64,000 nt of DNA from an uncultured Acidimicrobiales bacterium (GTDB lineage: Bacteria > Actinomycetota > Acidimicrobiia > Acidimicrobiales > SHLQ01): assembly GCA_905479685.1 (NCBI GenBank), contig CAJQNJ010000006.1, positions 20,111 to 84,110 on the forward strand, in the 5' to 3' direction. Shown in pieces: positions 4,586 through 50,384 of the stretch. The translations under genes and the position numbers were made by a program. A model generated the notes under the pieces. It saw only the letters and a program-made list of their open reading frames with translations. It was not told the DNA's origin and ran no database searches. Numbering within the stretch: position 1 is the first letter of the stretch; every line of letters begins with the position of its first letter.

Positions 4586-7102
4586 TCAGAGCCAGGGGCG
4601 AAGCTGCACGAGAGCGTCGACCATACGACCGGGAATCTCGATCTGCCAGGTGCCCTCGTTGATCCAGGCAGCCGTAGCCAACTCCCCAGCTTCGACCTCA
4701 TCAGCGGGTCGGTACGCCCACGCCATGCCAACAGCCGCATCGACGGTGTGACCCCACATGCCACCGGTCACGTAGCCCACGCGCAGACCGTCTCTGTACA
4801 GCGGTTCATTGTGGTGGAGAAGAACGGATTCATCATGGACGGCTACCTGCACGAGGCGTCGGGTGTTGCCCTTCGTCTTCTGCGCGACCAGCGCCTCCTT
4901 ACCGACAAAGTCCTTCTCCCAATCCACGGCAAAGGAGAGCCCAGCCTGCAGGGGTGTGTCGTCCGGAGTGAGTTCATGCCCCCAGTGTCGATACCCCTTC
5001 TCGAACCGCAGCGAGTTGAGCGTGTGATAGCCGGCCAGTTCCATTCCGAGCGGAGTGCCCGCGTCCATGAGCTGGTCGAACACGTGCACGGCGAATTCAG
5101 TCGGAACAAAGAGCTCCCAACCAAGCTCGCCCACGTAGCTCATCCGATTTGCGCGCACGTGACACCCGCCAGCGTCGATCAGTTGATTCGTCGCGAACGG
5201 GAACGCCTTGTCTGACATGTCCGCCTGTGTGACGCCCTGGACGATCTCACGAGACCCAGGGCCCATGACGGCCAGAACGGCAAACGCCGACGTGATGTCA
5301 GTAACGGTGGCGTTCGCCGCGCGCTCTCCTCCTTCTCCATCTGCATGTGAAGCAAGGGCACGTTCGATCGCGAGAAGGTCTCGCGATCGGGTACCAGCGC
5401 CACCAATGACCCAGAATTCCCGCTCGGAAATTCGACTGATCGTCAGGTCGGCCTCGATACCGCCATGGCGGTTCAGCCATTGGGTGTACACCGAACCTCC
5501 CACCTCGCCAGCAACAGGACCAGATGACATGCGACTCAGCACCGCGGCAGCGTCACGCCCCTGGACCAGGAATTTGGCGAACGAGCTGAGGTCGAATAGT
5601 CCTGCCGTTTCTCGCACCGCGTTGTGTTCGAGCTCGTTCGCCTCGTGCCAGTTCTGCCGACCCCAGGAGTATTCGTAACGAGCCTCGATGCCGAGCTCGG
5701 GGCGAGCGAAGAAGTTGGGTCGTTCCCATCCCATCATCGAGCCGAAACATGCTCCCTTTTCCTCGAGCCGATCGTGCAGAGGTGATCGCCGGATGTCGCG
5801 GCCGGTCTCGTATTGACGATGCGGCCAGTGCGGCGCATAGAGAAGCCCGAGACCTTCGACTGTCCGATCACGCAAGAACTTCTCCGTGCCATGAAACGGC
5901 TCGAACCGGCCGATGTCGACATCGGCCAGGTCGATGTGCGGCTCGCCGTTGACGATCCAGTGAGCCAAAGCCATTCCAGCCCCACCTGCGGACTGGATGC
6001 CGATGGAGTTGAACCCAGCGGCGACGAACATGCCCCGCAGGTTGGGAGCTTCGCCAAGGATGTAGCTGTTGTCGGGAGTGAAGCTCTCCGGACCATCGAA
6101 GATCAAGCGCAGGCCGGTTTCATGGATGATCGGGATGCGATCGAATGTAGCGGGCAAGAACTCGGCCAAGTGATCAGAAGCAGGCTCGAGGGTGATGAAC
6201 GACTTGTCCGTGGGCGGCGGACCTGCCGCTGGCCATGGGCTGGCGACTGGCTCGAAGAGACCGACCAACATTGAGCCACCTGCTTCTGGCTTCAGGTACG
6301 CAAAGTGATCGGGGTCCCGAAGGATCGGCCATTCGGCATCGAGCCCCTCGATCGGTTCGGTGACCACGTAGTAGTGATGCGCTGCGTGAAGTGGTACCTG
6401 CACGCCATGCTTGGCCGCGAGGTGCCTGGTCCACAGTCCGCACGCCAACACGACCGTGTCGCACTCGATGCGCTCACCGTTGTCGGTGATCACTCCAACC
6501 ACTCGACCGTCTTCGACGATCAGATCGTCGACGCCGGTGCCCTCGTACATGTTGGCGCCACCCATTCGAGCACCCTTCGCAAGCGCTTGGGTTACGTCGG
6601 AGGGCCCGACAGCGCCATCCTGAGGCAGCCAGATTCCTCCTGCGACATCGCTGACCTCGCACATCGGGAACTTGTCCTGAATCTCCCTGGGACCGATCTC
6701 CTCGGCCTCCACCCCGAGGTAGCGCGCCATCGCCGCCGTGCGACGGAGTTCTTCCCACCGTGTCGCCGTGCTCGCTAGCGAGATGGCGCCAGGTGCCCGA
6801 AATCCCGTTGCCTGGCCGGTTTCGTTCTCCAGGTTCTTGTAGAGCTCGAGACTGTATTGGGCAAGTCGGGTGAGGTTTTCGGTCGCACGAAGTTGTGCGA
6901 CGAGACCTGCGGCGTGCCACGTCGTGCCGCTGGTGAGTTCGTGGCGTTCAAGGATTGCGACATCGGTGACGCCGAGCTTCGTGAGATGGTATGCAACGGA
7001 CGCACCGACGATGCCACCACCAACGACGACAACCTGCGCCCGATCAGGCAACGCCGACGATGTTGGACTCTCGACCGGAAGTGTCGCAGGTGGAGACGAC
7101 AT
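4586..7102 (-). CDS. FAD-dependent oxidoreductase fused to a GcvT-type folate-binding domain (dimethylglycine oxidase / sarcosine dehydrogenase family)
   Basis: N-terminal dinucleotide fold VVVVGGGIVGASVAYHL (DAO domain) plus a C-terminal aminomethyltransferase-like region. The 838-aa architecture matches DMGO-type enzymes. Confidence 0.85.
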   Translation of the reverse strand: MSSPPATLPVESPTSSALPDRAQVVVVGGGIVGASVAYHLTKLGVTDVAILERHELTSGTTWHAAGLVAQLRATENLTRLAQYSLELYKNLENETGQATGFRAPGAISLASTATRWEELRRTAAMARYLGVEAEEIGPREIQDKFPMCEVSDVAGGIWLPQDGAVGPSDVTQALAKGARMGGANMYEGTGVDDLIVEDGRVVGVITDNGERIECDTVVLACGLWTRHLAAKHGVQVPLHAAHHYYVVTEPIEGLDAEWPILRDPDHFAYLKPEAGGSMLVGLFEPVASPWPAAGPPPTDKSFITLEPASDHLAEFLPATFDRIPIIHETGLRLIFDGPESFTPDNSYILGEAPNLRGMFVAAGFNSIGIQSAGGAGMALAHWIVNGEPHIDLADVDIGRFEPFHGTEKFLRDRTVEGLGLLYAPHWPHRQYETGRDIRRSPLHDRLEEKGACFGSMMGWERPNFFARPELGIEARYEYSWGRQNWHEANELEHNAVRETAGLFDLSSFAKFLVQGRDAAAVLSRMSSGPVAGEVGGSVYTQWLNRHGGIEADLTISRISEREFWVIGGAGTRSRDLLAIERALASHADGEGGERAANATVTDITSAFAVLAVMGPGSREIVQGVTQADMSDKAFPFATNQLIDAGGCHVRANRMSYVGELGWELFVPTEFAVHVFDQLMDAGTPLGMELAGYHTLNSLRFEKGYRHWGHELTPDDTPLQAGLSFAVDWEKDFVGKEALVAQKTKGNTRRLVQVAVHDESVLLHHNEPLYRDGLRVGYVTGGMWGHTVDAAVGMAWAYRPADEVEAGELATAAWINEGTWQIEIPGRMVDALVQLRPWL

Positions 7103-10218: not shown

Positions 10219-12933
10219 TTGGCCCACATGACTGTGAGGAGACACATACTCGAACAACCCAGGCACTACCTCACCTCACTCTTCGAACCCAGGTCCGTCG
10301 CAGTGTTCGGTGCCAGCGAGCGAGCGACCGCTGTCGGCGGCGTCGTACTCCGAAACATTGTCTCTGGCGGATTCGACGGCGAGGTGTATCCGATCAATCC
10401 CCGACACGACGAGATCTCTGGCTTGCGGTGTTACCCCGACCTTGCGTCAGTCGACGGCGAGGTCGAATTGGTAGTCATTGCGACACCAGCCGCCACAGTC
10501 CCCTCGATCCTCGAGTCATGTGGAGAGAAGGGGGTGACCGCAGCGGTGGTCCTATCGGCCGGCTTTCGGGAGGCCGGCGACGACGGTCGACGACTCGAGC
10601 GCCAAGCGATCGAAGTGGCGCGGCTCTACGGGATCCGGTTCCTCGGACCGAACTGCCTTGGATTGATTCGGCCCAGCGTTGGGCTGAATGCGACATTTGC
10701 CAACGGCACCGCAGATGCCGGGAATCTCGCGTTGGTTTCACAATCGGGGGCTCTCTGCACAGCGATCGTCGACTGGGCGGAGAATCGTGACATCGGGTTC
10801 TCCGCGGTGGTCTCTCTGGGCATCTCAGCCAACATCGACTTCGGCGAGATCCTCGACTTCCTCGTGTCGGATCCCAAGACCGACAGCATCCTCATGTACG
10901 TCGAAGGCATACAGGATGCCCGCGCATTCATGAGTGCTCTCCGGGCAGCAGCGCGAGTCAAGCCGGTGATCGTGGTGAAGGCCGGTCGGCATCAAGCGGG
11001 TGAGCAGGCAGCCATTTCACACACGGGAGCGCTGTCCGGCTCAGACGACGTGTTCGACGCCGCACTGCGTCGTGCCGGTGTTGTGCGTGGCGTGCATGTG
11101 GGCGACCTCTTTGCCGCCGCCGCGGTTCTGGTCGGACGGACCCGGATCGATGGTGATCGGCTGACGATCGTCACGAATGCAGGCGGTCCCGCAGTGATGG
11201 CTTGCGACAAGGCCGCCGACCTCGACATCGCATTGGCCGAACTGTCGCAAGAGACGCTCGGGGCGCTCGATGCAGTGCTTCCCCCGATGTGGTCACATAG
11301 CAACCCCATCGACGTATTGGGAGATGCCGACGCGGAACGCTACGCGGAGGCAATCCGCGGCGCACTGGATGACCAGGGCACAGATGGCGTACTCGTGATG
11401 CTCACCCCGCAGGCGATGACTGATCCGACCGCCGTCGCCCGCCGCGTGATCGAGGTCGGCCAGAAGAGTACAAAGCCAGTTCTCACCTGTTGGATGGGTG
11501 GCGCGCAGGTTAGAGAATCGCGGGAGCTGTTCGCTCAGGCGCCGGTCCCGACCTTTCGTTTGCCCGAAACCGCCGTTCAGGGGTTTTCGTACCTCACGCA
11601 GTTTCACAAGAATCAGGAACTACTCGTCCAGACCCCAGGCCCGATGTCGTCGGAGTCGATCCCCGACATCGCCGGAGCACAGCTCATCATCGACAACGTG
11701 CTCGCAGAAGGGCGGTCGATCCTGACAGAGGTCGAGTCGAAGGCCGTCCTCGCAGCGTTCCGGGTACCGGTTACACCCTCGTCGATCGCACGCACCTCCA
11801 ACGAGGCGATCGTCGCGGCAGAGACTCTCGGCTTTCCGGTGGCGATGAAGATCCATTCGCACGACATCACACACAAGTCAGACATCGGCGGAGTGCGGCT
11901 CGATGTCGACAGTGCCGGCGCCGTTCAGCGAGCGTTCGACGAACTTCTCCGAGCAGCAGCCGAGCATCGTCCCGACGCCGATGTCGAAGGTGTTCTGGTG
12001 CAGCCCATGGTGCCCCTTGCGTCCGGTGTCGAGCTCCTGATCGGTATCAACCGCGACCCGATCTTCGGCCCCGTTGTCGTCTTCGGCAGTGGCGGTACCG
12101 AACTCGAGCTCTTGTCCGACAAGGCGGTCTGCCTTCCACCACTCAATCATCTGCTCATCGACGACATGATCGGCCGGACGCGGGCAGCGAGACGATTGGC
12201 GGGCTATCGGGGTAAGCCAGCGGCCGATCTGGAGGCAGTGCGAAACGTGTTGTTGCGGGTATCGGAGATGGCGTGCGAACTCCCATCCATCAAGGAACTC
12301 GACATCAACCCGCTGATTGCCGGACCCGACGGCGTCGTTGCAGCCGATGCTCGGATGGTGGTCGATCGATATTTCGTCGATTCGCGCCGATACTCACACA
12401 CAGCGATCCATCCGTATCCAAGCCATCTCGTTTCAACAACGCTGCTCGCTGGGGGGATGGCGTGCACGATTCGGCCGATTCGTCCCGAAGATGCCGAGAT
12501 GGAGCGAGCATTCGTCGACAACCTCTCTCCCGAGACGAAGCACTTCCGATTCATGAGCACCTTCAAACAGCTCTCAGCGACAATGCTGGCCCGTTTCACT
12601 CAGATCGACTACGACCGCGAAATGGCGTTCGTCGCCGTCATCGACCAGGACGGTGTGGACCTGGAGATCGGCGTGTGCCGATACATCATCAACCCTGATG
12701 GCGAGACCTGCGAGTTCGCGGTTGTGGTCGCGGACGATTGGCAGGGTCGAGGTGTTGCACACAAACTCATGGAGGTGCTCATCGAATACGCGCGATATCG
12801 CAGGCTCGAGACGATGGAGGGATTCGTTCTCGCAAACAACGAAGGGATGAAGGCCCTTGCGCGAAGCTTCGGATTCCGGGTCACGCCGGATCCACAAGAT
12901 CCGGGCATGGTCAGGACCGTGAAGTCTCTGTAA
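10219..12933 (+). CDS. bifunctional ADP-forming acyl-CoA synthetase-like / GNAT protein lysine acetyltransferase (PatZ/Pka type)
   Basis: The 904-aa architecture is: CoA-binding N-terminus (VAVFGASERATAVGG), succinyl-CoA-synthetase-like and ATP-grasp regions, then a C-terminal GNAT (FAVVVADDWQGRGVAHKLM). TTG at 10219; alternative ATG at 10228. Confidence 0.85.
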   Translation: MAHMTVRRHILEQPRHYLTSLFEPRSVAVFGASERATAVGGVVLRNIVSGGFDGEVYPINPRHDEISGLRCYPDLASVDGEVELVVIATPAATVPSILESCGEKGVTAAVVLSAGFREAGDDGRRLERQAIEVARLYGIRFLGPNCLGLIRPSVGLNATFANGTADAGNLALVSQSGALCTAIVDWAENRDIGFSAVVSLGISANIDFGEILDFLVSDPKTDSILMYVEGIQDARAFMSALRAAARVKPVIVVKAGRHQAGEQAAISHTGALSGSDDVFDAALRRAGVVRGVHVGDLFAAAAVLVGRTRIDGDRLTIVTNAGGPAVMACDKAADLDIALAELSQETLGALDAVLPPMWSHSNPIDVLGDADAERYAEAIRGALDDQGTDGVLVMLTPQAMTDPTAVARRVIEVGQKSTKPVLTCWMGGAQVRESRELFAQAPVPTFRLPETAVQGFSYLTQFHKNQELLVQTPGPMSSESIPDIAGAQLIIDNVLAEGRSILTEVESKAVLAAFRVPVTPSSIARTSNEAIVAAETLGFPVAMKIHSHDITHKSDIGGVRLDVDSAGAVQRAFDELLRAAAEHRPDADVEGVLVQPMVPLASGVELLIGINRDPIFGPVVVFGSGGTELELLSDKAVCLPPLNHLLIDDMIGRTRAARRLAGYRGKPAADLEAVRNVLLRVSEMACELPSIKELDINPLIAGPDGVVAADARMVVDRYFVDSRRYSHTAIHPYPSHLVSTTLLAGGMACTIRPIRPEDAEMERAFVDNLSPETKHFRFMSTFKQLSATMLARFTQIDYDREMAFVAVIDQDGVDLEIGVCRYIINPDGETCEFAVVVADDWQGRGVAHKLMEVLIEYARYRRLETMEGFVLANNEGMKALARSFGFRVTPDPQDPGMVRTVKSL

Positions 12934-12941
12934 GCGGTTTT

Positions 12942-13865
12942 TCACAGGCCAAGCAGAACGCGCACGTGTGCGGTCACAGACGCTCCAAGAGCAGCGAGGT
13001 CATATCCTCCTTCCAGTGCAGAGACCACTCGACCGCCCGCGTGTGATTGAGCGAGGTCGACGATCTCCTGGGTGAGCCATGCGAAATCGTCCTCGGTAAG
13101 GGCGAAGCTGGCCATGTGGTCTCGGACATGTGCGTCGAATCCAGCAGAGACGAGTATCAACTCGGGCTCGAACGCGTCGATTCGGGGAAGCCAGCTGTCT
13201 GCGACAGCAGAGCGGAAGTCGCTGCTTCGTGAGCCCGCCGGAAGTGGTAGATCGAGTACGCGATCGTCACCGTCGACCGATTCGGAGAATGGGTAGAACG
13301 GGTGCTGATAGGACGAGCAGAAGAGCACCCGAGGGTTGCGGCCGATGATGTCGAGGGTTCCGTTGCCCTGGTGGGCGTCGAAGTCGATGACTGCGATCCG
13401 CTCGAGACCGTGAGCTGCGAGCGCGTGGCATGCGCCTATCGCAATGTTGTTGAAGAAACAGAAGCCCATGGCGCGGTCCCGGGTCGCATGGTGGCCGGGT
13501 GGTCGGACGGCGCAGAACGCGTTGGCCAATTCGCCCGTGACCACCAGGTCAACCGCCCTCACCACAGCGCCAGCCGCGTGACGAGCGGCCTCGAAGGTAT
13601 GGGCATTCATCTGGGTATCCGCATCGACCTCGAAATATCCGGTATCGGGAACGTGTGCACCGACCCAGGCAATGTACTCACGGGAGTGCGCTCGCTCCAG
13701 CTGCTCCTCAGTCACCTCGGGGGCTTCGTAGGCTTCGAGGTAGTTCATGAGCCTTGCTTCGATCAGGGCATCGTTGATTGCCGACAGTCGCGCTGGCGAA
13801 TCGGGGTGGTCGTTGGGCATCTCGTGGGTAAGACACGCAGGATGGGTCAAGTAGCCGGTCGACAT
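12942..13865 (-). CDS. histone deacetylase family (Zn-dependent) deacetylase / acetylpolyamine amidohydrolase-like
   Basis: RPPGHHA and DFDAHQGNGT motifs, with a C-terminal EGGY. Confidence 0.85.
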   Translation of the reverse strand: MSTGYLTHPACLTHEMPNDHPDSPARLSAINDALIEARLMNYLEAYEAPEVTEEQLERAHSREYIAWVGAHVPDTGYFEVDADTQMNAHTFEAARHAAGAVVRAVDLVVTGELANAFCAVRPPGHHATRDRAMGFCFFNNIAIGACHALAAHGLERIAVIDFDAHQGNGTLDIIGRNPRVLFCSSYQHPFYPFSESVDGDDRVLDLPLPAGSRSSDFRSAVADSWLPRIDAFEPELILVSAGFDAHVRDHMASFALTEDDFAWLTQEIVDLAQSHAGGRVVSALEGGYDLAALGASVTAHVRVLLGL

Positions 13866-15581: not shown

Positions 15582-16010
15582 ATGGCCGAGAACAAGACGA
15601 AGCCAACCGATGTCGACCCTGCAGCCTTCGTCGCCGACGTCGCACACGACACTCGCAGGGCCGATGCTGAGGTCCTCCTCGAAAGCATGGAACGCATCAC
15701 CGGGTACGCACCCAAGATGTGGGGTCCCGGGATCATTGGTTTCGGCCGATACCACTACGCCTATGAAAGTGGACGAGAAGGCGACTTCCTGATCGTTGGT
15801 TTCTCGCCGCGAAAGGCGAACCTCGTCGTGTACCTGATGCCTGGATACGACGACCTTGCCGAACCGCTGTCTCGACTTGGGAAACACAGAATTGGCAAGA
15901 GCTGCCTGTACATCAACAAGTTGGCTGACATCGATCAGAGCGTGCTCGAAGAGATGATCGCCGCCTCGGTCGAACGAATGCAGAAGATGTACGAAACCTT
16001 CTCGAGTTAG
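15582..16010 (+). CDS. DUF1801 (YdhG-like) domain protein
   Basis: KPTDVDPAAFVADV ... MWGPGIIGFGRYHY ... LVVYL pattern typical of DUF1801. Its stop overlaps the convergent gene's stop (TTAG, 16007-16010). Confidence 0.7.
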   Translation: MAENKTKPTDVDPAAFVADVAHDTRRADAEVLLESMERITGYAPKMWGPGIIGFGRYHYAYESGREGDFLIVGFSPRKANLVVYLMPGYDDLAEPLSRLGKHRIGKSCLYINKLADIDQSVLEEMIAASVERMQKMYETFSS

Positions 16011-17353
16011 TCGACGACGCCGGGGCCCTCAACGAACGAGCCACTGCGGAGCTGATGTGCCACGCCGTCTCTCGCGATCTCTTCCCCGCCCAGGTAGGTG
16101 GCGATCGCTTTGCCCTTGAGGACTCGGCCAGAGTACGGACTCCATCCGGCCTTCGAGAGCAGGTCACCCGCGTCGATCGTCCACGATCCATCCGGATCGA
16201 CGAGTACGAAATCGGCATCAGCGCCGACACCAAGATGACCCTTTCGGGGAAACAACCCATATCTCTTCGCTGGGGTCTCGCTATAGAGCCGTGCAACATT
16301 TGTTATGTCGATCTTGCCTCTCAGCGCGGCATCGATGAGTACAGGAAATGTCGTGTCCAAGCCTGGAAGCCCGAATGGAGAACTCCACATGTCTCCATCG
16401 AGCTTCTGCTCCATTGTCGACGGCGCATGATCGGTGGAGAAATGTGAGTAGGTGCCGTTTCGCACCAGTTCCCACATCGCTTCCTCGTCCTCATCTGAAC
16501 GAGCACGGGCTGGCGGCGTGAACTTACGGAGCGCGCCACACGAATGCACTTCATCCTCGCGTAGCAACAAGTACTGCGGGCACGCCTCTGCGGCGATGTT
16601 TGCCCCGCGCGCTTGGGCATCCGTGACGACGCCTGCCACGGCGGGGCTGCTCACATGAGCGATCGTTGCCCGAGCTCCCGTCACCGCAACCAGCGATGCT
16701 GCCGCCGCAGTTGCGGCCAGCTCGGCCTCGCGATTCCGCCACTCGAGCAGGATTCCGTTGTCGGTCCGTCCCGATTCCTTCAGCGCTTTCTCGGCAACTG
16801 CGGTGATCGATTCGTCTTCGCAGTGGATGAGCGTGGCCGCTCCGGCGCCCGAGATCTCGCGCAACGCCGCCAGCAGATTGGCCGGGTCAAGTCCGGGCAC
16901 GCCATGGGTCGAACAGGTGAAGATCTTGAAGAAGGCGACACCAGCGCGCCACAAGTCTCCGATCTGATCGACGCGGTCGGGCCACGTGTGCGCCGCCAGC
17001 GCATAGTCGACATTCGAACGTCCCACGAGGTGCGACTTCTTCGCGTGAAGGTCGACGACCTCTCGAATCGGGTGCCCATGGGTGTGTTCGATGATCGTGG
17101 TCACGCCCCGCGCCGCCGCCGCGGCGGTGCCAGATGGATAGTCCTCCCGACTGAGGTCCCCCGGCTCCATGAGGTGCACGTGCGTGTCGACACCTCCGGG
17201 CATGATCAGCAGATCGGTCGCATCGATTGTGATGTCTGCAGCGCCGAGGTCCTGCCCGACAGCTTCGACTCGGCCGTCTTGAATCCGCAGGTCGGCGCGT
17301 ACCTGCGCCGATCCAGAGACGATGATTCCCCCGCTCACGATGACAGCGGTCAT
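16007..17353 (-). CDS. cyclic amidohydrolase (allantoinase / dihydropyrimidinase / dihydroorotase superfamily)
   Basis: MPGGVDTHVHL metal-binding motif, a candidate carbamylated Lys in AFFKIF, and STDHAP. Confidence 0.8.
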   Translation of the reverse strand: MTAVIVSGGIIVSGSAQVRADLRIQDGRVEAVGQDLGAADITIDATDLLIMPGGVDTHVHLMEPGDLSREDYPSGTAAAAARGVTTIIEHTHGHPIREVVDLHAKKSHLVGRSNVDYALAAHTWPDRVDQIGDLWRAGVAFFKIFTCSTHGVPGLDPANLLAALREISGAGAATLIHCEDESITAVAEKALKESGRTDNGILLEWRNREAELAATAAAASLVAVTGARATIAHVSSPAVAGVVTDAQARGANIAAEACPQYLLLREDEVHSCGALRKFTPPARARSDEDEEAMWELVRNGTYSHFSTDHAPSTMEQKLDGDMWSSPFGLPGLDTTFPVLIDAALRGKIDITNVARLYSETPAKRYGLFPRKGHLGVGADADFVLVDPDGSWTIDAGDLLSKAGWSPYSGRVLKGKAIATYLGGEEIARDGVAHQLRSGSFVEGPGVVD

Positions 17354-18537
17354 GGTTCACTCCTGTTCGTTGAGAGGGCAGCCGCCGCTCGGAGCAACAT
17401 CTCCTCTGAGTTAGGTGCCCCGATGAGGCCGAGCGGCACGTATTGGGAGTCATGTTGTGTGGGAATGACAACCTGCGGAAGTCCAGCAAGCGTGCTCGGC
17501 GCACCGAGCCGAAACGAGTCGACCCGAAACGAGAGAAGCTCGTCGTCAGTCCATGCACGGAGCGGTCCGACTCGAGGTCTGACCGGCACGACCGCGATTG
17601 CACCTGCCGGTATCAGAGAGAAGAGCTCGTTCTTGTAGTCGATGTGCTGCTGACGATCTCGCCCCTGCTCCTCGAGTGGGTCGTCGGCGAGGGTCTCGCA
17701 TCGCCGCAAACGTTGTTGCACGTCGTCCGCGAGCGCCCTGATGTTGTCGGTTACCCATCGGGAGTGTTCCGCCCATATCTCACGGCCCTGGAGCCTGGCA
17801 AGAAGATCCCCCGAAGACTCGTCCATGAACCGACTCATGTCCGCCTCGGCGACAGAAGCACCGAATGCACTGCCGATCTGCTCGGCAGCAGCCTGCATGG
17901 ATGAGCGGTTCTTCGTGTCCTGGGAAGCCCACACATCCATCGGGCACAGGACCGTTGATGCCGCTGCAGTTGCACCGGTTGCTGGAGCGACCACGTCGAT
18001 GGCCTGTTGTAGGAGCCCTGGTTCACGAGCGAAGAACCCGATCACATCGAAGGACGGTGCAAGCGGGACCACACCAGTGGTGTCCACCCGGCCGTGGGTG
18101 GGCCGGATGCTGAACAGTCCACACGCGGCTGCGGGGACTCGAATCGACCCGGCAGTGTCGGTCCCGACGCCAAGATCCGCAGCATCTCCCGCTACCGCTG
18201 AGGCCGACCCCGACGACGATCCCCCGCAGTACGAATCCTCGTCGAACGAGTTGATCGGCGGCGACCCCTCGCCCACGTTGCCGATCAGCGAGTAGGCGAG
18301 CTGGTCCATCTTCGTTGTGCCGACGACCGTGCCTCCAGCGGCCCGGAGCTGCGCGACGATCGGAGCATCAACCGCGGATGGTTCATGTGTGTCGCGCCAT
18401 CGAGCGTGTCCGAAAGAAGACTGGTGACCAGCGATGTCGATCAGGTCCTTGACTGCGATTCGAACACCGTCGAGCGATCCGTGCGCGGTCGGTGCCAACG
18501 TTACGGACGGTTCGGTGAAGCACTCGAGTTCGTTCAC
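17350..18537 (-). CDS. amidase-signature family amidase
   Basis: GGSSSGSASAVA amidase signature. GTGA overlap with the upstream gene and ATGA overlap with the downstream gene. Confidence 0.85.
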   Translation of the reverse strand: MNELECFTEPSVTLAPTAHGSLDGVRIAVKDLIDIAGHQSSFGHARWRDTHEPSAVDAPIVAQLRAAGGTVVGTTKMDQLAYSLIGNVGEGSPPINSFDEDSYCGGSSSGSASAVAGDAADLGVGTDTAGSIRVPAAACGLFSIRPTHGRVDTTGVVPLAPSFDVIGFFAREPGLLQQAIDVVAPATGATAAASTVLCPMDVWASQDTKNRSSMQAAAEQIGSAFGASVAEADMSRFMDESSGDLLARLQGREIWAEHSRWVTDNIRALADDVQQRLRRCETLADDPLEEQGRDRQQHIDYKNELFSLIPAGAIAVVPVRPRVGPLRAWTDDELLSFRVDSFRLGAPSTLAGLPQVVIPTQHDSQYVPLGLIGAPNSEEMLLRAAAALSTNRSEP

Positions 18538-19823
18538 CTCTGACCAGCCGATCCATGTGGGTGGAGGTGGTCATGATCAGCGTGTTCGTTCGCCACGTGG
18601 TGCCCCGTCGAGTGATCGTATCGCTCGTGGTGTTGTCGCAGAAGATCGATCCCGTAGTCGCCTCCGTTCGGGGTACGAACCACCGAATGCACGTGATGAC
18701 GGGTGCGCATGTCATTGTCGAACACGATCCCCTCCAGGTGATCGAACTCGATGAGAATCACCGGACTCTGCACGCGGTAGTAGAAGGGGCCGTCGCCGGT
18801 CGAACCCATCCAGGCGAACCAGGTTTCATCGAGGTGAGCATCGACCTCGTCCATCTTCACGTCTGCATGACCATTGCGAGTCCACCCGACGTAGGTGCTG
18901 ACGAGGGTTCGGAGCAAGCGACGTTGCGCATCGTCGAGGTCGGTCGCTTGGACACCCTCGGTTTCTATCACGGCGTTGTCCATGAAGGCGCTGGCCTGCA
19001 TCAACGGGTCAAATGGCCCGCGCAGCTCGGCTGGGAGATCGCTGGGCTGAATCGATGGTCGAAGAAGTGCTTTCGCGGTCTGGCTGGCATCGAGTGCACG
19101 TATCAGATCGAGTCCTCTTGCCTCCTCCTTGTCGAAGACGGAGGTTCCCGCATACGGACCCGCATCCACGCGACACGGTTCGGATCCCATGAACGTGGGC
19201 GTCATCACGAGTTGGTCGCCAATGATCACACAATTGATGTTCAGATGGTGGCCATCGAACTGCCAGCCCCACGGCTCTTCGCTTCCCGGGTTGCCGAAGA
19301 TCGATACGAAATACGGCCATTCGCCGTACTCGTCTGGTCGGCCCGAGACGATCGCCAACAGCTCGTTGAGACGCATGATGTCTCGAGCCTGCGAGAACCC
19401 GTGAGCTGACAATGTGGTTCGAAGAAGATCGAGGCCACGCTGTCGGCCCTCGGTCGACAGTTGTTCGAGCATCACTCCATGTCGGAAGAAGTTCATGTGT
19501 ACGTTGACCCACGACCGCCAATGATTCGAGTCGAGCGAAAACTGGCATCGTTCTCGTTGCTCGATGCTGAGTCCATCCAAGAAGCCGAGCGCAGCTTCGG
19601 CGATCGGCGCCGTACTGACGCCGGTGGGGCTCAGGGTGAAGAGGCCCGCCCGAGTGGTGCCATCGGTCGTGATCCCGGTGAAGGGCTCCCGATGAAGCTC
19701 GCGACGCCGCTCCACCACTGGCTGTAGCGGACCCGGGATCGCATCGACGCGGGATCGAGCTGACATCGGCGGGCTGTTGCGAAGGCCAAAGCTGTTCCAG
19801 TGCGTCATGCCTTCTTTCACCAT
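18534..19823 (-). CDS. DUF3500 domain protein with a His-rich C-terminal tail
   Basis: The WGWQFDGHHLNINC block is typical of DUF3500 as I remember it. I trimmed the start to the ATG at 19823, which overlaps the upstream stop; the longest ORF (to 20141) runs deep into the Ldh2 gene. Confidence 0.6.
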   Translation of the reverse strand: MVKEGMTHWNSFGLRNSPPMSARSRVDAIPGPLQPVVERRRELHREPFTGITTDGTTRAGLFTLSPTGVSTAPIAEAALGFLDGLSIEQRERCQFSLDSNHWRSWVNVHMNFFRHGVMLEQLSTEGRQRGLDLLRTTLSAHGFSQARDIMRLNELLAIVSGRPDEYGEWPYFVSIFGNPGSEEPWGWQFDGHHLNINCVIIGDQLVMTPTFMGSEPCRVDAGPYAGTSVFDKEEARGLDLIRALDASQTAKALLRPSIQPSDLPAELRGPFDPLMQASAFMDNAVIETEGVQATDLDDAQRRLLRTLVSTYVGWTRNGHADVKMDEVDAHLDETWFAWMGSTGDGPFYYRVQSPVILIEFDHLEGIVFDNDMRTRHHVHSVVRTPNGGDYGIDLLRQHHERYDHSTGHHVANEHADHDHLHPHGSAGQR

Positions 19824-20914
19824 GGCACCGCCACTCCGAGCTGCTCGCTCACGTTCTCCAGGTCCTGACGTACAGGTTTGGTGATCGGGATTCCCAACTC
19901 GGTATTCTCCCGCTGCGCGATCTCCTCTGGTTCTCCGGGAATGAAGATCCGGTCGTGACCCTGCGACTTCTTCGCACCACGCACGATGTCGAATGTCTCC
20001 TCCATCGACTGGTGTGTGTCCTCGACAGGACGAAAACCATCCAGCCGAATCGCTCCCATGAAGTGACTCATCGCCGCGGCAGATTCTCCGGAGGCCCCTG
20101 CAATTCGATCGCTGAGTGGTGTCCCACTCAAGGCGCCACACACGAGTTCCACCATCAGACTGAGCCCGAATCCCTTGTGACCACCAGAGTCGTCCCCTTC
20201 CCCGCCGAGCGGAAGCAGTGGAGAATCGAAGGACAACACACCTCGCTCGTCGAGCATCGGCTCACCGGTCTGGCGGGTGACCCAGCTGTCCGGAACGGGC
20301 CGGCCCTCGCGTAGCGCCGTCTCGATCTTGCCCACTGCGACAGCCGAAGTCGCCATGTCGAGTACGAAGTCGGTCTCATTTGGTCGACCGCCCAAGGCGA
20401 CGGAGAGTGGATTGGTGCCCAGAATTGACTCAGCTCCAAACGTCGGTGTCACCCGGCGTCCGCTGTTCGACATGCTGATACCCAGGCAGTTGCGCGCCAT
20501 CGCGCGTTCGGCCCAGTAGCCGGCAAAACCGAAGTGATTGCTGTTGGCAACCGCGATGAATCCCGAACCGAATTCCTCGGCAAGCTCGATCGCACGATCC
20601 ATTGCAACCGCGCTGGCAACAATACCGAGCCCGTTGTCTGCATCGAGCAAGCCCGTCGTGTCAGAACCCAGGGTCATTGCAAATTGCGGATTGGGATTGA
20701 GCGTGCCCCGCTCGACGCGGACCATGAAATAGCCGATTCGGGCAACGCCGTGGCTTCGCACGCCACGCAGATCGGCAGCGACGAGCACGTCGGCCACCAG
20801 TTCCGCGTCCGTTGCCGGGAAGCCAGCAGCGACGAAGACGTCGCAGGCGAAATGGCGCGCGTCGACGTGTTGGACCCGCAGCGTGTCGCTCGGTAACGGC
20901 GCTGACTCCACCAA
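19817..20914 (-). CDS. Ldh family (malate/L-lactate dehydrogenase type 2) oxidoreductase
   Basis: Length and blocks (LRGVRSHGVARIGYF, NHFGFAGYW, GGHKGFGLS) are typical of the Ldh_2 family, which includes ureidoglycolate, sulfolactate and piperideine-carboxylate dehydrogenases. Confidence 0.8.
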   Translation of the reverse strand: MVESAPLPSDTLRVQHVDARHFACDVFVAAGFPATDAELVADVLVAADLRGVRSHGVARIGYFMVRVERGTLNPNPQFAMTLGSDTTGLLDADNGLGIVASAVAMDRAIELAEEFGSGFIAVANSNHFGFAGYWAERAMARNCLGISMSNSGRRVTPTFGAESILGTNPLSVALGGRPNETDFVLDMATSAVAVGKIETALREGRPVPDSWVTRQTGEPMLDERGVLSFDSPLLPLGGEGDDSGGHKGFGLSLMVELVCGALSGTPLSDRIAGASGESAAAMSHFMGAIRLDGFRPVEDTHQSMEETFDIVRGAKKSQGHDRIFIPGEPEEIAQRENTELGIPITKPVRQDLENVSEQLGVAVPW

Positions 20915-21009
20915 AGCAGCCTCCTTGCATCAGCTGATCACCCGGTGCGATCGTTCAGATCATATATCTAGTGAGATGACGGCTCACGTGCCAGGCGCCG
21001 CCGAGGCTG

Positions 21010-21651
21010 ATGGACGTTCGATACCCTCGCCACATGAACGAGTCGAGTGACATGAATCGGTGGACCGAGATCATCGCCAAAGATCCGGGGCATTCTCAGC
21101 GCTACATCGAACGCTTCGAGAAGATGGAAGCTGAAGGTCGCGACCTCGATGGTGAGGCTCGGCTCATCGATGCCATCACCGGTCGAGAGAGTCGCATTCT
21201 CGACGCCGGCTGTGGCCCAGGGCGCGTCGGTGCGAAGTTGGCGGGCCTTGGCCACATCGTTGTCGGAGTTGATCTCGATCCCGTACTGATCGCCGCCGCG
21301 AAGGCAAAACATCCTGGGGCGACCTGGGTCGTTGGAGATCTCTCCAAGATTGATCTCGCTGGAGCCGAGGTGGGTGGGTCAATCGATGTCCTGGTGTGTG
21401 CCGGCAACGTGATGCGCTTTCTGGCGCCCGATAACCGACAAGCGGTCCTGATGAATTTCCGACGTTCTCTCGCACCTTCTGGACGCGCCGTACTCGGCTT
21501 TGGTTCGGGTGGAGGTGAGTACGAATTCGATGACTACCGTGCCGATGTTTCCGCAGCGGGCCTGGTCATCGATGCACAGTTCTCGAGCTGGGACCTACGG
21601 CCGGTTGCGAGCGACCCGGGCTTCCTGATCTCGTTTCTGAGCGTGGCGTAG
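21010..21651 (+). CDS. class I SAM-dependent methyltransferase
   Basis: ILDAGCGPGRVG motif I followed by VVGVDLD. Confidence 0.8.
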   Translation: MDVRYPRHMNESSDMNRWTEIIAKDPGHSQRYIERFEKMEAEGRDLDGEARLIDAITGRESRILDAGCGPGRVGAKLAGLGHIVVGVDLDPVLIAAAKAKHPGATWVVGDLSKIDLAGAEVGGSIDVLVCAGNVMRFLAPDNRQAVLMNFRRSLAPSGRAVLGFGSGGGEYEFDDYRADVSAAGLVIDAQFSSWDLRPVASDPGFLISFLSVA

Positions 21652-49407: not shown

Positions 49408-50384
49408 GAGGTTGCTCCTGAGTGAGGGGTGGGCTCGGTCCGGGTGGAAGTCCCGGCGAGATATTGCGCTTTGAAACGTTCGAGGAGTGCTCGAACCGGA
49501 GTGGCACGTCGGCCGAGCACACGATCGGTGCGCGGTGTGCTGAGTGAGGTGTCGAACGGGATTGGCGCCGACAACATCGATTCTGGATCTGGCGGTCCGA
49601 AGTGCAGCAGGCTCTCGTCGAGATCGAAGACGTCGACTGCGAGTTCGGCCAGTTCGCGACGCGTCACCGCATCGGCGCCACAGCAGTGAAACACACCACC
49701 CAGGCGTCGTTCGCCGATTTGTATCATGATCTCGCCACACTCCAGTGCCAATGACGGCGTCGCGATCATATTGATGTCGTCACCCTCCCAGACCGTGAAC
49801 GGTCTGCCTGACCCGAGGGCGTCGACCAGGCTTGCCACAAAGTACCCGAAGCCCCGATCTTGTGACCGAGGAGTCTGGGGGCGCGCAACGTGCATTCCGT
49901 TCACGCCGCTCACGCGGGCCACCGCTCCGCCAGATTCGAGGGTGACCATCTCCGAGGCCAGCTTCAAGGTGCCGTAGAGATTGATGGGGTTGGGGGGTGT
50001 CTCCTCATGCGCTCCGCCTTGTGTGCCATCGAAGACCCAGTCGGTCGAGACCAGAACATATGCAGCACCCGCATCGTCCAACGCCGCTTTGGCAGTCGAA
50101 CGAGTTGCACCCACATACGCGGCCCACGAGGCATCACGATCTGCATACATTCGGTGCCAGTCGTTCATGATCGCGCAGTGCACGACAAGGTCTGGTGCGA
50201 ACTGTTCGATACTCCCTCGGACCGCTGAGTCGTCGACCATGTCGACCCGATCCACGGAATATCGCGCATCAACAGGTGCCACGAACGTGTGCGCTGAGGT
50301 CAGGACTTCGTGACCGCCATCGACTGCCGCCCGGACGATGTTGGAACCGACAAAACCACCGCCACCCGAGATCCACACCCTCAC
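49404..50384 (-). CDS. extended SDR, RmlD (dTDP-4-dehydrorhamnose reductase)-like NAD(P)-dependent reductase/epimerase
   Basis: SGGGGFVGSN, STDWVFDG, and YGTLK. The GTG at 50384 overlaps the upstream TGA (GTGA). Confidence 0.75.
   Translation of the reverse strand: MRVWISGGGGFVGSNIVRAAVDGGHEVLTSAHTFVAPVDARYSVDRVDMVDDSAVRGSIEQFAPDLVVHCAIMNDWHRMYADRDASWAAYVGATRSTAKAALDDAGAAYVLVSTDWVFDGTQGGAHEETPPNPINLYGTLKLASEMVTLESGGAVARVSGVNGMHVARPQTPRSQDRGFGYFVASLVDALGSGRPFTVWEGDDINMIATPSLALECGEIMIQIGERRLGGVFHCCGADAVTRRELAELAVDVFDLDESLLHFGPPDPESMLSAPIPFDTSLSTPRTDRVLGRRATPVRALLERFKAQYLAGTSTRTEPTPHSGATS

What the first reader, a model, noticed from the sequence alone, without database searches (positions are those of the whole stretch)
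16007..20914. Translationally coupled Ldh2 / DUF3500 / amidase / cyclic-amidohydrolase operon: candidate uncharacterised amide or ureide catabolic pathway
Seen in sequence: four minus-strand genes are joined by overlapping stop/start codons (ATG at 19823 overlaps the TGA at 19817-19819; GTGA at 18534-18537; ATGA at 17350-17353). There is no room for internal promoters. Established knowledge: cyclic amidohydrolases open hydantoin, dihydropyrimidine or allantoin-type rings. Amidase-signature enzymes hydrolyse the resulting carbamoyl or amide bond. Ldh_2-family enzymes include ureidoglycolate dehydrogenase and cyclic imino-acid reductases. Those three make chemical sense together. The second gene, a 429-aa DUF3500 protein, has no known function as far as I know, yet it is stoichiometrically embedded between them. 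Inference: DUF3500 is an enzyme or accessory factor of a ring-opening and deamidation pathway for a N-heterocycle. This context is a handle for assigning its function.
Basis: partly seen in the sequence, partly recalled or inferred. Interest (0 to 1): 0.6.

Follow-up and report, generated by a model that had tools for sequence, protein, structure and literature searches.

The report
Lineage-specific amidase operon that recruited DUF3500
Four tightly packed genes in a marine Ilumatobacter-like bacterium form a real operon, but DUF3500 sits next to amide-hydrolysing enzymes only in one small lineage, whereas elsewhere the DUF3500 family is found with aromatic ring-degradation genes, so the find is a modest local variant rather than a key to the family's function.

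Summary
Four minus-strand genes (Ldh_2, DUF3500, amidase-signature amidase, cyclic amidohydrolase) are joined by 7-, 4- and 4-nt overlaps, and all Pfam assignments are correct.

- Of the 80 most similar DUF3500 loci in species-representative genomes (52-67% identity), only one carries the cluster. The cluster-bearing DUF3500s form one small clade.
- The conserved core is the amidase + amidohydrolase pair, which occurs alone in related Ilumatobacter genomes. The arrangements seen are the pair alone, DUF3500 plus the pair, and all four genes.
- DUF3500 is not a blank. [quoted passage not shown] PDB 9X86 (ApmL/Amc20) is deposited as a dehydratase. Bacterial homologs are fused to an aromatic-ring hydroxylase or a dienelactone hydrolase, and sit beside FAH, Rieske, cupin and luciferase-like oxygenase genes.
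- None of the three known-family enzymes reaches any NCBIfam equivalog cutoff (allantoinase, hydantoinase, AllD and others).

Best reading: a portable catabolic module for a hydroxylated nitrogen-containing ring compound. DUF3500 would do metal-dependent ring cleavage or dehydration, and the two hydrolases would remove the amide nitrogen. The substrate is unknown. Interest is modest.

The parts
19817..20914 (-). Ldh_2-family NAD(P) oxidoreductase, first gene of the operon. Start is TTG 20914 or GTG 20911.
   Evidence: Pfam Ldh_2 1.3e-101. NCBIfam best hits are all below cutoff: sulfolactate DH 213.8 against 500, ureidoglycolate DH 186.8 against 356. RGVRSHG motif at residue 50. Orthologs at 63-68% identity are normally followed by a split ThDP decarboxylase-like pair, not by DUF3500.
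18534..19823 (-). DUF3500 (PF12006) protein of 429 aa (alternative start ATG 19808). Probably a metalloenzyme, with a His-rich C-terminal tail.
   Evidence: Pfam 1e-94 and no NCBIfam model. Homolog PDB 9X86 ApmL/Amc20: profile E 4.7e-38, Foldseek E 6.7e-19, target TM-score 0.86. Residues conserved over 28-74% identity include H193, E215, Y348, R350, E359, H377, H379 and D389. The tail NEHADHDHLHPHG is seen only in this protein among the aligned orthologs.
17350..18537 (-). Short (395 aa) amidase-signature amidase with a GTG start that overlaps the DUF3500 stop.
   Evidence: Pfam Amidase 4.5e-48. NCBIfam PRK08310 'amidase' matches over the full length at 307 bits, below its 391 cutoff. Signature elements K30 (KDL), GGSSSGS at 105 and GTDTAGSIRVP at 125 are present. 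The 4-nt DUF3500-amidase overlap is kept in L082, L084 and the P0002 contig.
16007..17353 (-). Cyclic amidohydrolase of the dihydroorotase / hydantoinase / allantoinase type, last gene of the operon.
   Evidence: Pfam Amidohydro_1 3e-24. NCBIfam allantoinase 284.8 against 357.85 and D-hydantoinase 256.3 against 393.25, both below cutoff. Roughly equidistant from PDB allantoinases and from L- and D-hydantoinases. Metal-site motifs DTHVH (56), FKIF (142), IHCE (176), AHVS (232) and TDHAP (307) are present. 83-89% identical across all amidase-linked loci.
20915..21009 (.). 95-nt divergent intergenic region upstream of Ldh_2. It holds the Shine-Dalgarno sequence AAGGAGG (20926-20920) and an A+T-rich stretch, and is the presumed operon promoter/operator region.
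   Evidence: Read from the sequence. The only promoter-like consensus hit in the scanned region lies on the + strand at 21047-21074, and hit counts are at chance level. Promoter function is inferred, not shown.

Best explanation
This is a genuine, compact catabolic operon of a marine Ilumatobacter-like actinobacterium. The arrangements seen in relatives suggest it was built in steps.

The conserved core is an amidase-signature amidase followed by a binuclear-metal cyclic amidohydrolase. This pair stands alone in related genomes, inside an aromatic-type catabolic island.

In one small monophyletic sub-lineage a DUF3500 gene sits upstream of the pair, and in part of that lineage an Ldh_2 gene sits upstream of DUF3500. 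The four-gene version occurs as a unit in at least three unrelated genomic contexts.

DUF3500 is most likely a metal-dependent enzyme acting on polyhydroxylated six-membered rings, doing ring cleavage or dehydration. Family-wide it is found with ring hydroxylases and with hydrolases of ring-fission products.

Proposed mechanism (inferred, not shown):
- The operon degrades a hydroxylated, nitrogen-containing ring compound, such as an aromatic amide or an N-heteroaromatic.
- Ldh_2 performs an NAD(P)-dependent hydroxy/oxo (or imine) redox step.
- DUF3500 opens or dehydrates the ring.
- The cyclic amidohydrolase and the amidase hydrolyse the resulting cyclic and linear amide bonds and release ammonia.

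The order of steps and the substrate are unknown.
For: Shown:
- Operon anatomy and family calls.
- Catalytic and metal motifs are present in the amidase and the amidohydrolase.
- The arrangements form a graded series: amidase-amidohydrolase alone (L159, L090, L092, L160), DUF3500-amidase-amidohydrolase (L082), and the full four genes (L084/L087/L088/L064, P0002 contig, window).
- The cluster-bearing DUF3500s are monophyletic.
- The flanking genes differ between the window, P0002 and L084. None of the L159/L084 island genes is found in the window apart from weak GFO_IDH_MocA paralogs.

DUF3500 family evidence:
- Fusions to an aromatic-ring hydroxylase (FAD_binding_3 + Rng_hyd_C), a dienelactone hydrolase and an alpha/beta-hydrolase.
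- The nearest annotated homologs (36-43% identity) sit beside FAH, Rieske, cupin, LLM, HpaH and HpcH/HpaI genes.
- A luciferase-like monooxygenase is the commonest neighbour of the orthologs, in 23 of 80 loci.
- Fungal deletion data point to 1,2,3,5-tetrahydroxybenzene ring cleavage.
- PDB 9X86 is titled 'dehydratase ApmL'.
- His, Glu, Asp and Tyr residues are conserved across the family, and the window protein has a His-rich tail.

Context evidence:
- The island that hosts the pair carries MR_MLE, CMD, IclR, HpcH_HpaI, Amidohydro_2 and PF04199 cyclase genes.
- More distant amidohydrolase orthologs lie next to Mo-hydroxylases, RidA and amine-oxidase genes, which are typical of N-heterocycle catabolism.
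Against: - No substrate, cofactor or transcript evidence exists.
- 79 of the 80 closest DUF3500 orthologs lack the amidase context, and most have no operonic partner at all (only 29 of 80 do, and those partners are heterogeneous). The ortholog group may therefore have a general function unrelated to amides.
- Ring-fission products of polyhydroxybenzenes contain no nitrogen, so the chemical link between DUF3500 and the two hydrolases is conjecture.
- The two functional leads for DUF3500 (oxygenolytic ring cleavage and dehydratase) disagree, and neither is backed by published enzymology that I could read.
- There is no transporter or regulator next to the operon in the window.
- The stepwise series could equally reflect gene loss.
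Confidence: 0.4

Rival explanations
1. The operon is a ureide or cyclic-amide pathway of the hydantoin, dihydropyrimidine or allantoin type. The amidohydrolase opens the ring and the amidase removes the carbamoyl or amide group. Ldh_2 acts like ureidoglycolate dehydrogenase. DUF3500 is a new enzyme filling a missing step, for example a ureidoglycine-aminohydrolase analogue, which would give a four-gene route from allantoin to oxalurate.
For: - The best NCBIfam hit of the amidohydrolase is allantoinase AllB (284.8 bits), and Ldh_2 hits AllD models.
- The closest solved structures to the amidase include allophanate hydrolases and a chain deposited as biuret hydrolase, alongside GatA subunits.
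- The reverse gene order (amidohydrolase, amidase, DUF3500, Ldh_2) matches the order of steps in the allantoin pathway. The graded series of arrangements (pair, then DUF3500, then Ldh_2) follows the same order.
Against: - Every equivalog score is below its curated cutoff: allantoinase 284.8 against 357.85 and 277.1 against 631; AllD 169.5 against 496.2 and 186.8 against 356.
- The amidohydrolase is equally close to L- and D-hydantoinases and to dihydroorotases.
- Ldh_2 is closer to 'malate dehydrogenase' and sulfolactate dehydrogenase structures than to AllD. Its orthologs pair with split ThDP decarboxylase-like genes.
- No purine or ureide genes or permeases lie nearby.
- DUF3500 relatives show aromatic, not ureide, contexts.
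Confidence: 0.15
2. An operon of convenience. Ldh_2 and DUF3500 are co-transcribed with the amidase-amidohydrolase pair but belong to a different pathway or a general function. The adjacency is a lineage-specific accident that hitch-hiked when the block moved.
For: - The linkage is absent from 79 of the 80 closest DUF3500 loci.
- It is also absent from most amidohydrolase orthologs at 81% identity or less.
- Ldh_2 orthologs have other partners.
- The amidase-amidohydrolase pair functions without DUF3500 in widespread Ilumatobacter lineages.
- 4-nt overlaps are the default gene spacing in this genome.
Against: - The DUF3500-amidase junction (4-nt overlap) and the gene order are kept in four lineages whose DUF3500 proteins are only 70-83% identical to the window copy and whose amidases are 58-76% identical to it. 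Their flanking genes differ completely.
- The block appears to have moved as a unit.
Confidence: 0.2
3. A hydratase/dehydratase reading. The pair converts a cyclic imide or lactam into a dicarboxylate (imidase, then half-amidase). DUF3500, like the deposited 'dehydratase' ApmL, then hydrates or dehydrates the carbon skeleton. Ldh_2, whose nearest solved relatives are annotated as malate dehydrogenases, oxidises the resulting 2-hydroxy acid.
For: - PDB 9X86 is titled 'dehydratase'.
- The top PDB hits of Ldh_2 are 'malate dehydrogenase' entries 1V9N and 3I0P.
- Each of the four genes gets a step in this scheme.
Against: - The scheme is purely chemical reasoning.
- ApmL is only 26% identical in the structural alignment and acts in nucleoside-antibiotic sugar biosynthesis.
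- No imide-pathway markers are present.
- The fusions and gene neighbourhoods of the family favour aromatic ring-fission chemistry.
Confidence: 0.1

Closest known systems
Fungal gallate / 1,2,3,5-tetrahydroxybenzene pathway cluster (monooxygenase + DUF3500 AN10530 + FAH-like + short protein; Martins et al., bioRxiv 10.1101/2023.06.06.543907 = PMC10832562)
   Same: It contains a PF12006 protein embedded in a catabolic cluster. Bacterial homologs at 36-43% identity to the window protein show the same partners: FAH, ring hydroxylases and dienelactone hydrolase.
   Different: The window operon has no monooxygenase, FAH or lactone hydrolase. Its partners are an amidase, a cyclic amidohydrolase and Ldh_2. 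The fungal function rests on deletion phenotypes only and was still 'putative' in 2025.
ApmL / Amc20, PDB 9X86, deposited as 'dehydratase ApmL in amipurimycin biosynthesis'
   Same: It is the only solved structure with this fold (Foldseek E 6.7e-19, target TM-score 0.86). It shares the motifs WGW..GHH, YYRVQ.P..LIE.D and H.HSV.R.P.
   Different: It is shorter (297 aa), 26% identical in the structural alignment, and belongs to a secondary-metabolite sugar pathway. I could not find or read a paper on it.
Allantoin pathway AllB / AllC / AllD (E. coli type) and hydantoinase-carbamoylase (Hyu) systems
   Same: They combine a cyclic amidohydrolase, a C-N hydrolase for the opened ring and, in the Ldh_2 family, ureidoglycolate dehydrogenase.
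   Different: Here the second hydrolase is an amidase-signature enzyme rather than an M20 or nitrilase-type enzyme. All equivalog models fall below their cutoffs. There are no permease, regulator or purine genes. The DUF3500 gene has no counterpart in those systems.
Pyridine-ring maleamate pathway (NicX dioxygenase, NicD deformylase, NicF amidase) and aminophenol meta-cleavage pathways that use an amidase-signature 2-aminomuconate deaminase (CnbZ). Both are cited from my own knowledge and were not retrieved here.
   Same: The logic is what I propose here: ring cleavage of a hydroxylated nitrogen-containing ring followed by hydrolytic removal of the nitrogen.
   Different: The protein families for ring cleavage and hydrolysis are unrelated to those in this operon. 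This is a 'works like' analogy only.
Ldh_2 + split ThDP decarboxylase modules (ComC / ComDE-like)
   Same: The window Ldh_2 is 63-68% identical to Ldh_2 genes that head such modules. Those genes overlap the next gene by 4-7 nt, as in the window.
   Different: In the window the downstream partner is DUF3500 rather than the split ThDP enzyme. The split subunits score far below the ComD/ComE cutoffs, so their specificity is unknown as well.

Membership tests
PF12006 DUF3500 | Pfam HMM score above the gathering threshold (27.2 bits) over the full model | tested here: met
   317.9 bits, E 1e-94, model positions 2-296 of 297
PF12006 DUF3500 | Same fold as the one solved member (9X86) | tested here: met
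   AF2 model pLDDT 76, pTM 0.79. Foldseek against 9X86 gave E 6.7e-19 and target TM-score 0.86, with no other PDB fold match.
DUF3500-associated aromatic ring-fission clusters (fungal THB type) | Adjacent ring hydroxylase and FAH-like or lactone hydrolase genes | tested here: not met
   The window operon and its flanks contain none of these. They are present around homologs at 36-43% identity and in gene fusions.
Cyclic amidohydrolases (Amidohydro_1; dihydroorotase / hydantoinase / allantoinase group) | HxH, carboxylated Lys, two further His and an Asp forming the binuclear metal site | tested here: met
   Motifs DTHVH (56), FKIF (142), IHCE (176), AHVS (232) and TDHAP (307) are present. Pfam E 3e-24. 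The assignment of these motifs to metal ligands rests on established knowledge of the family.
Allantoinase AllB (TIGR03178 / NF004839) | Score at or above the curated equivalog cutoff | tested here: not met
   284.8 against 357.85, and 277.1 against 631
D-hydantoinase / dihydropyrimidinase (TIGR02033) | Score at or above the curated equivalog cutoff | tested here: not met
   256.3 against 393.25
Amidase signature family (PF01425) | Ser-cisSer-Lys catalytic triad within the GGSS[GS]GS signature | tested here: met
   K30, GGSSSGS at 105-111 and S131 within GTDTAGSIRVP. Pfam E 4.5e-48.
Ureidoglycolate dehydrogenase AllD (TIGR03175 / NF011599) | Score at or above the curated equivalog cutoff | tested here: not met
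   169.5 against 496.2, and 186.8 against 356
L-sulfolactate dehydrogenase ComC (NF040650) | Score at or above the curated equivalog cutoff | tested here: not met
   213.8 against 500
Operon (single transcription unit) | Co-transcription of all four genes | not testable with these tools
   Only indirect evidence is available: overlaps of 7, 4 and 4 nt, and no promoter or terminator signal above chance inside the block.
Conserved gene cluster (recurrent linkage across the DUF3500 family) | Amidase, amidohydrolase or Ldh_2 neighbours recur among DUF3500 homologs | tested here: not met
   1 of 80 closest species-level loci has the cluster. The linkage is confined to one clade.

The most novel reading that the evidence does not exclude
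In this Ilumatobacter clade DUF3500 could be a previously unrecognised metal-dependent ring-opening enzyme that acts on a hydroxylated N-heterocycle or aromatic amide. It would feed its product directly to a dedicated amidase and cyclic amidohydrolase. That would define a new bacterial route for marine nitrogen-containing ring compounds and give the first tractable bacterial system for working out the chemistry of the DUF3500 fold.
Probability: 0.2. Interest if true: 0.6.

Novelty: new variant of a known kind. Interest (0 to 1): 0.3.

Why it matters
DUF3500 is a mid-sized family: 4,756 clusters at 50% identity match at E ≤ 1e-3. Its fold has only one solved relative, and I could not find published enzymology for any member. 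Any conserved operon that contains it is therefore a possible experimental handle.

This operon offers one such handle. It could also point to an unknown nitrogen-releasing catabolic route in abundant marine Acidimicrobiia.

Its value is limited. The linkage is confined to one small clade, and stronger, family-wide clues already exist: aromatic hydroxylase, FAH and dienelactone-hydrolase linkage and fusions, the fungal genetics, and the ApmL structure.

Tried and rejected
- **Literature on Amc20/ApmL:** no paper was found, and Romo et al. 2019 (PMC6774755) is not held. The 'dehydratase' label therefore rests on the PDB title alone.
- **CnbZ** (amidase-signature 2-aminomuconate deaminase) was not found in the library. 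It is cited from memory only.
- **Promoter and terminator scan of the operon:** hit counts were at chance level.
- **Flanking repeats that could mark a mobile unit:** only short chance matches were found. Base composition is uniform.
- **First crude gene calling by longest ORF:** it picked antisense ORFs in these high-GC loci. I replaced it with a GC3-based choice anchored on the query gene.
- **Sulfolactate pathway idea:** the Ldh_2 orthologs with a split ThDP enzyme looked ComC/ComDE-like, but the scores are far below cutoff and the large neighbouring ThDP enzyme is not Xsc-like. I rejected this as an assignment.
- **Island genes elsewhere in the window:** I looked for the L159/L084 island genes (TauD, CMD, MR_MLE, cyclase, Amidohydro_2, HpcH) and found none, apart from weak GFO_IDH_MocA paralogs.
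- **Urate-oxidase-like role for DUF3500:** considered, but no supporting evidence was found.

Full report
**1. The observation**

The region holds four minus-strand ORFs:
- 16007-17353, 448 aa
- 17350-18537, 395 aa, GTG start
- 18534-19823, 429 aa counted from ATG 19823
- 19817-20914, 365 aa, TTG start; a public gene call on the same contig starts at GTG 20911

Pfam assigns the four products to Amidohydro_1 (3e-24), Amidase (4.5e-48), DUF3500 (1e-94) and Ldh_2 (1.3e-101).

The block is bounded by a divergent methyltransferase gene and a convergent DUF1801 gene. The wider neighbourhood is housekeeping: DinB-type polymerase, topoisomerase I and helicases. A good Shine-Dalgarno sequence (AAGGAGG) precedes Ldh_2.

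Two qualifications apply.
- Orthologs of DUF3500 start at the equivalent of Met6 (ATG 19808). The 7-nt overlap may therefore really be an 8-nt gap.
- 4-7-nt overlaps are the norm in this genome. They occur in 10 of 25 same-strand neighbouring pairs. The overlaps argue for an operon but are not remarkable.

Promoter and terminator scans give only chance-level counts.

**2. The three enzymes from known families**

- The cyclic amidohydrolase has the motifs that carry all the binuclear-metal-site ligands.
- The amidase has the Ser-cisSer-Lys signature elements.
- None of the three reaches any curated NCBIfam cutoff:
  - allantoinase 284.8 against 357.85
  - D-hydantoinase 256.3 against 393.25
  - PRK08310 amidase 307 against 391
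  - sulfolactate dehydrogenase 213.8 against 500
  - ureidoglycolate dehydrogenase 186.8 against 356
- Against solved structures, the amidohydrolase is about equally distant from allantoinases, L- and D-hydantoinases and dihydroorotases.
- The nearest structures to the amidase include allophanate hydrolases, GatA subunits and a chain deposited as biuret hydrolase.
- Ldh_2 is nearest to archaeal-type 'malate dehydrogenase' and sulfolactate dehydrogenase structures.

Substrate specificity therefore cannot be read from homology.

**3. Does the linkage recur? Anchored on DUF3500**

The window protein belongs to a strongly conserved ortholog group: about 409 aa, 52-67% identity, spread across Acidimicrobiia, Alpha-, Beta- and Gammaproteobacteria and Dormibacterota.

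In the 80 most similar loci from species-representative genomes, each with up to 10 kb of flank on either side:
- Only one locus (L064, an Ilumatobacter MAG) carries Ldh_2, amidase and amidohydrolase next to DUF3500.
- Two others have an unrelated amidase paralog 6-7 kb away.
- Only 29 of 80 have any same-strand neighbour within 80 nt. Those neighbours are heterogeneous: luciferase-like monooxygenase 4, D-Ala-D-Ala ligase 3, cupin, 2OG oxygenase, alpha/beta-hydrolase and others.
- The commonest gene within five positions is a luciferase-like monooxygenase, in 23 of 80 loci.
- Homologs of FAH, HpcH-aldolase and Rieske genes occur in 4-8 loci each.

The closest relatives do keep the cluster:
- The P0002 contig (83% identity) has Ldh_2, DUF3500, amidase and a truncated fourth gene, with the same 7- and 4-nt overlaps.
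- L084, L087 and L088 (about 74-75%) have all four genes.
- L082 (70%) has DUF3500, amidase and amidohydrolase but no Ldh_2.

In a neighbour-joining tree these sequences form a single clade inside the ortholog group.

**4. Anchored on the other genes**

*Amidohydrolase.* Orthologs at 49-87% identity were recovered from 67 metagenome loci. The amidase is adjacent only where the amidohydrolase is at least 86% identical. Two Tara contigs carry the amidase-amidohydrolase pair, and in L092, which keeps 5.8 kb upstream of the amidase, no DUF3500 is found.

More distant amidohydrolase orthologs lie among GFO/IDH/MocA, NAD_binding_2, Zn-ADH and SDR dehydrogenases. Other neighbours are PF04199 cyclases, Amidohydro_2, M24 creatinase-like proteins, molybdenum hydroxylases, RidA and amine oxidases.

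*Amidase.*
- L159 (60% identity; its protein cluster includes a member named 'uncultured Ilumatobacter sp.') shows the same island as L082 and L084, but with the amidase-amidohydrolase pair alone.
- L160 (55%) also has the pair, next to a divergent split ThDP enzyme.
- L161 (51%) has no amidohydrolase.

*Ldh_2.* Orthologs at 63-68% identity are followed, with a 4-7-nt overlap, by a split ThDP decarboxylase-like pair rather than by DUF3500.

*Rates.* Across amidase-linked loci the amidohydrolase is 83-89% identical, while the amidase is only 50-63% identical.

*Reading.* The core is the amidase-amidohydrolase pair. The observed arrangements (pair alone, DUF3500 plus pair, all four genes) suggest that DUF3500 and then Ldh_2 were added upstream in one sub-lineage, although stepwise loss would fit equally well. 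The four-gene block then appears in different genomic contexts. The window lacks every other gene of the ancestral island apart from weak GFO_IDH_MocA paralogs.

**5. What is known about DUF3500**

The claim that it has no known function is out of date.
- In Aspergillus nidulans, deleting the DUF3500 gene AN10530 causes transient accumulation of 1,2,3,5-tetrahydroxybenzene. The authors propose a new ring-cleavage enzyme and note that bacterial DUF3500 genes often sit near FAH-like genes. A 2025 review still calls it a putative dioxygenase.
- One homolog has a crystal structure, 9X86 (molecule name Amc20), titled 'dehydratase ApmL in amipurimycin biosynthesis'. My AF2 model (pLDDT 76) matches it with a target TM-score of 0.86 and matches nothing else in the PDB.
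- Gene fusions among the 50%-identity representatives point the same way:
  - an aromatic-ring hydroxylase (FAD_binding_3 + Rng_hyd_C) fused to DUF3500, 42% identical to the window protein
  - DUF3500 fused to a dienelactone hydrolase
  - DUF3500 fused to an alpha/beta-hydrolase
  - an inositol-monophosphatase-family domain fused to DUF3500
- The nearest annotated homologs on plasmids or chromids (36-43% identity) all sit in aromatic-type clusters:
  - Streptomyces: IclR, aldolase, DUF3500, Rieske, epoxide hydrolase, PDR/VanB reductase
  - Rhodococcus: TetR, DUF3500, cupin, AMP-ligase, FAH
  - Thioclava: GntR, DUF3500, FAH, HpaH, HpcH/HpaI aldolase, with HpaD and a dienelactone hydrolase nearby
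  - Paraburkholderia: LLM, Rieske, FAH, DUF3500, FAH, cupin
- More distant members (26-32% identity) have other contexts again.

Residues conserved over 28-74% identity include H193, E215, Y348, R350, E359, H377, H379 and D389. The window protein also ends in a His-rich tail. These features suggest a metalloenzyme; that is my inference.

**6. Synthesis**

The operon is real, and within its clade the coupling of DUF3500 to the amidase-amidohydrolase pair is conserved across changing contexts. A shared pathway is therefore the most economical reading.

Family-wide, however, DUF3500 is found with ring hydroxylation and ring-fission genes, not with amide hydrolysis. The island hosting the ancestral pair also looks aromatic: MR_MLE, CMD, IclR, HpcH_HpaI, Amidohydro_2 and PF04199 cyclase.

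I therefore favour (confidence about 0.4) a module for a hydroxylated, nitrogen-containing ring compound:
- DUF3500 opens or dehydrates the ring.
- The two hydrolases remove the amide nitrogen.
- Ldh_2 adds a redox step.

Every step of this mechanism is inferred, and the substrate is unknown.

The rivals, and the tests that would separate them, are:
- an operon of convenience (0.2)
- a hydratase scheme ending at a malate-type dehydrogenase (0.1)

**7. Verdict**

The finding is a new variant of a familiar kind of thing, a lineage-specific catabolic operon assembled from known families plus one poorly characterised family. As a handle on DUF3500 function it is weaker than the clues already available family-wide.

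Interest 0.3.

Noticed in passing
window 10219-12933 (+) and 12942-13865 (-): A 904-aa protein combines CoA-binding, succinyl-CoA-ligase-like, ATP-grasp and GNAT domains, the architecture of Pat-type protein acetyltransferases. It lies tail-to-tail with a histone-deacetylase-family gene, which could make an acetylation writer/eraser pair.
   Followed up: no
window 50381-51784 (-): A 467-aa protein fuses a fatty-acid-desaturase domain to a C-terminal Rieske [2Fe-2S] domain.
   Followed up: no
window 4586-7102 (-): An 838-aa DAO-FAO_M-GCV_T protein has the dimethylglycine/sarcosine dehydrogenase architecture typical of marine one-carbon and betaine catabolism.
   Followed up: no
window 18534-18600 (C-terminus of DUF3500): The His-rich tail NEHADHDHLHPHG is absent from most orthologs, although P0050 has a different His-rich tail. 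It may be a metal-binding extension.
   Followed up: partly
L162 6001-7220; L163 6001-8200; L164 6001-8203; L160 5698-6899: Ldh_2 orthologs (63-68% identity) head a conserved module with a split ThDP enzyme whose subunits weakly resemble ComD/ComE or phosphonopyruvate decarboxylase (all far below cutoff). A divergent large ThDP enzyme lies alongside in L163 and L164. The same kind of split pair sits divergent to the amidase-amidohydrolase pair in L160. The function of this module is unknown.
   Followed up: partly
L097, L098, L136 and related loci (amidohydrolase orthologs at 57-64% identity): These cyclic amidohydrolase orthologs lie beside molybdenum hydroxylases (MoCoBD), RidA, M24 creatinase-like proteins, S15 peptidase-like proteins and PF04199 cyclases. 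The mix looks like uncharacterised N-heterocycle catabolic islands.
   Followed up: partly
P0390, P0443, P0365, P0361/P0104 (DUF3500 fusion proteins): DUF3500 occurs fused to an aromatic-ring hydroxylase, a dienelactone hydrolase, an alpha/beta-hydrolase and an inositol-monophosphatase-family domain.
   Followed up: partly
window 16007-18537 compared with L082, L084, L159, L160: Adjacent genes evolve at very unequal rates. The amidohydrolase is 83-89% identical across lineages in which the amidase next to it is only 50-63% identical. I have no explanation.
   Followed up: no
L064 5888-6925: The DUF3500 copy in the one GTDB genome that has the cluster gives a shortened match (1,038 nt, 59% identity in the best segment). 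Yet in the tree it clusters tightly with L084. It may contain a deletion, a frameshift or an assembly defect.
   Followed up: no
window 15582-16010 (+) against 16007-17353 (-): The convergent DUF1801 gene and the amidohydrolase gene overlap by 4 nt at their 3' ends, and no terminator-like structure lies between them.
   Followed up: no
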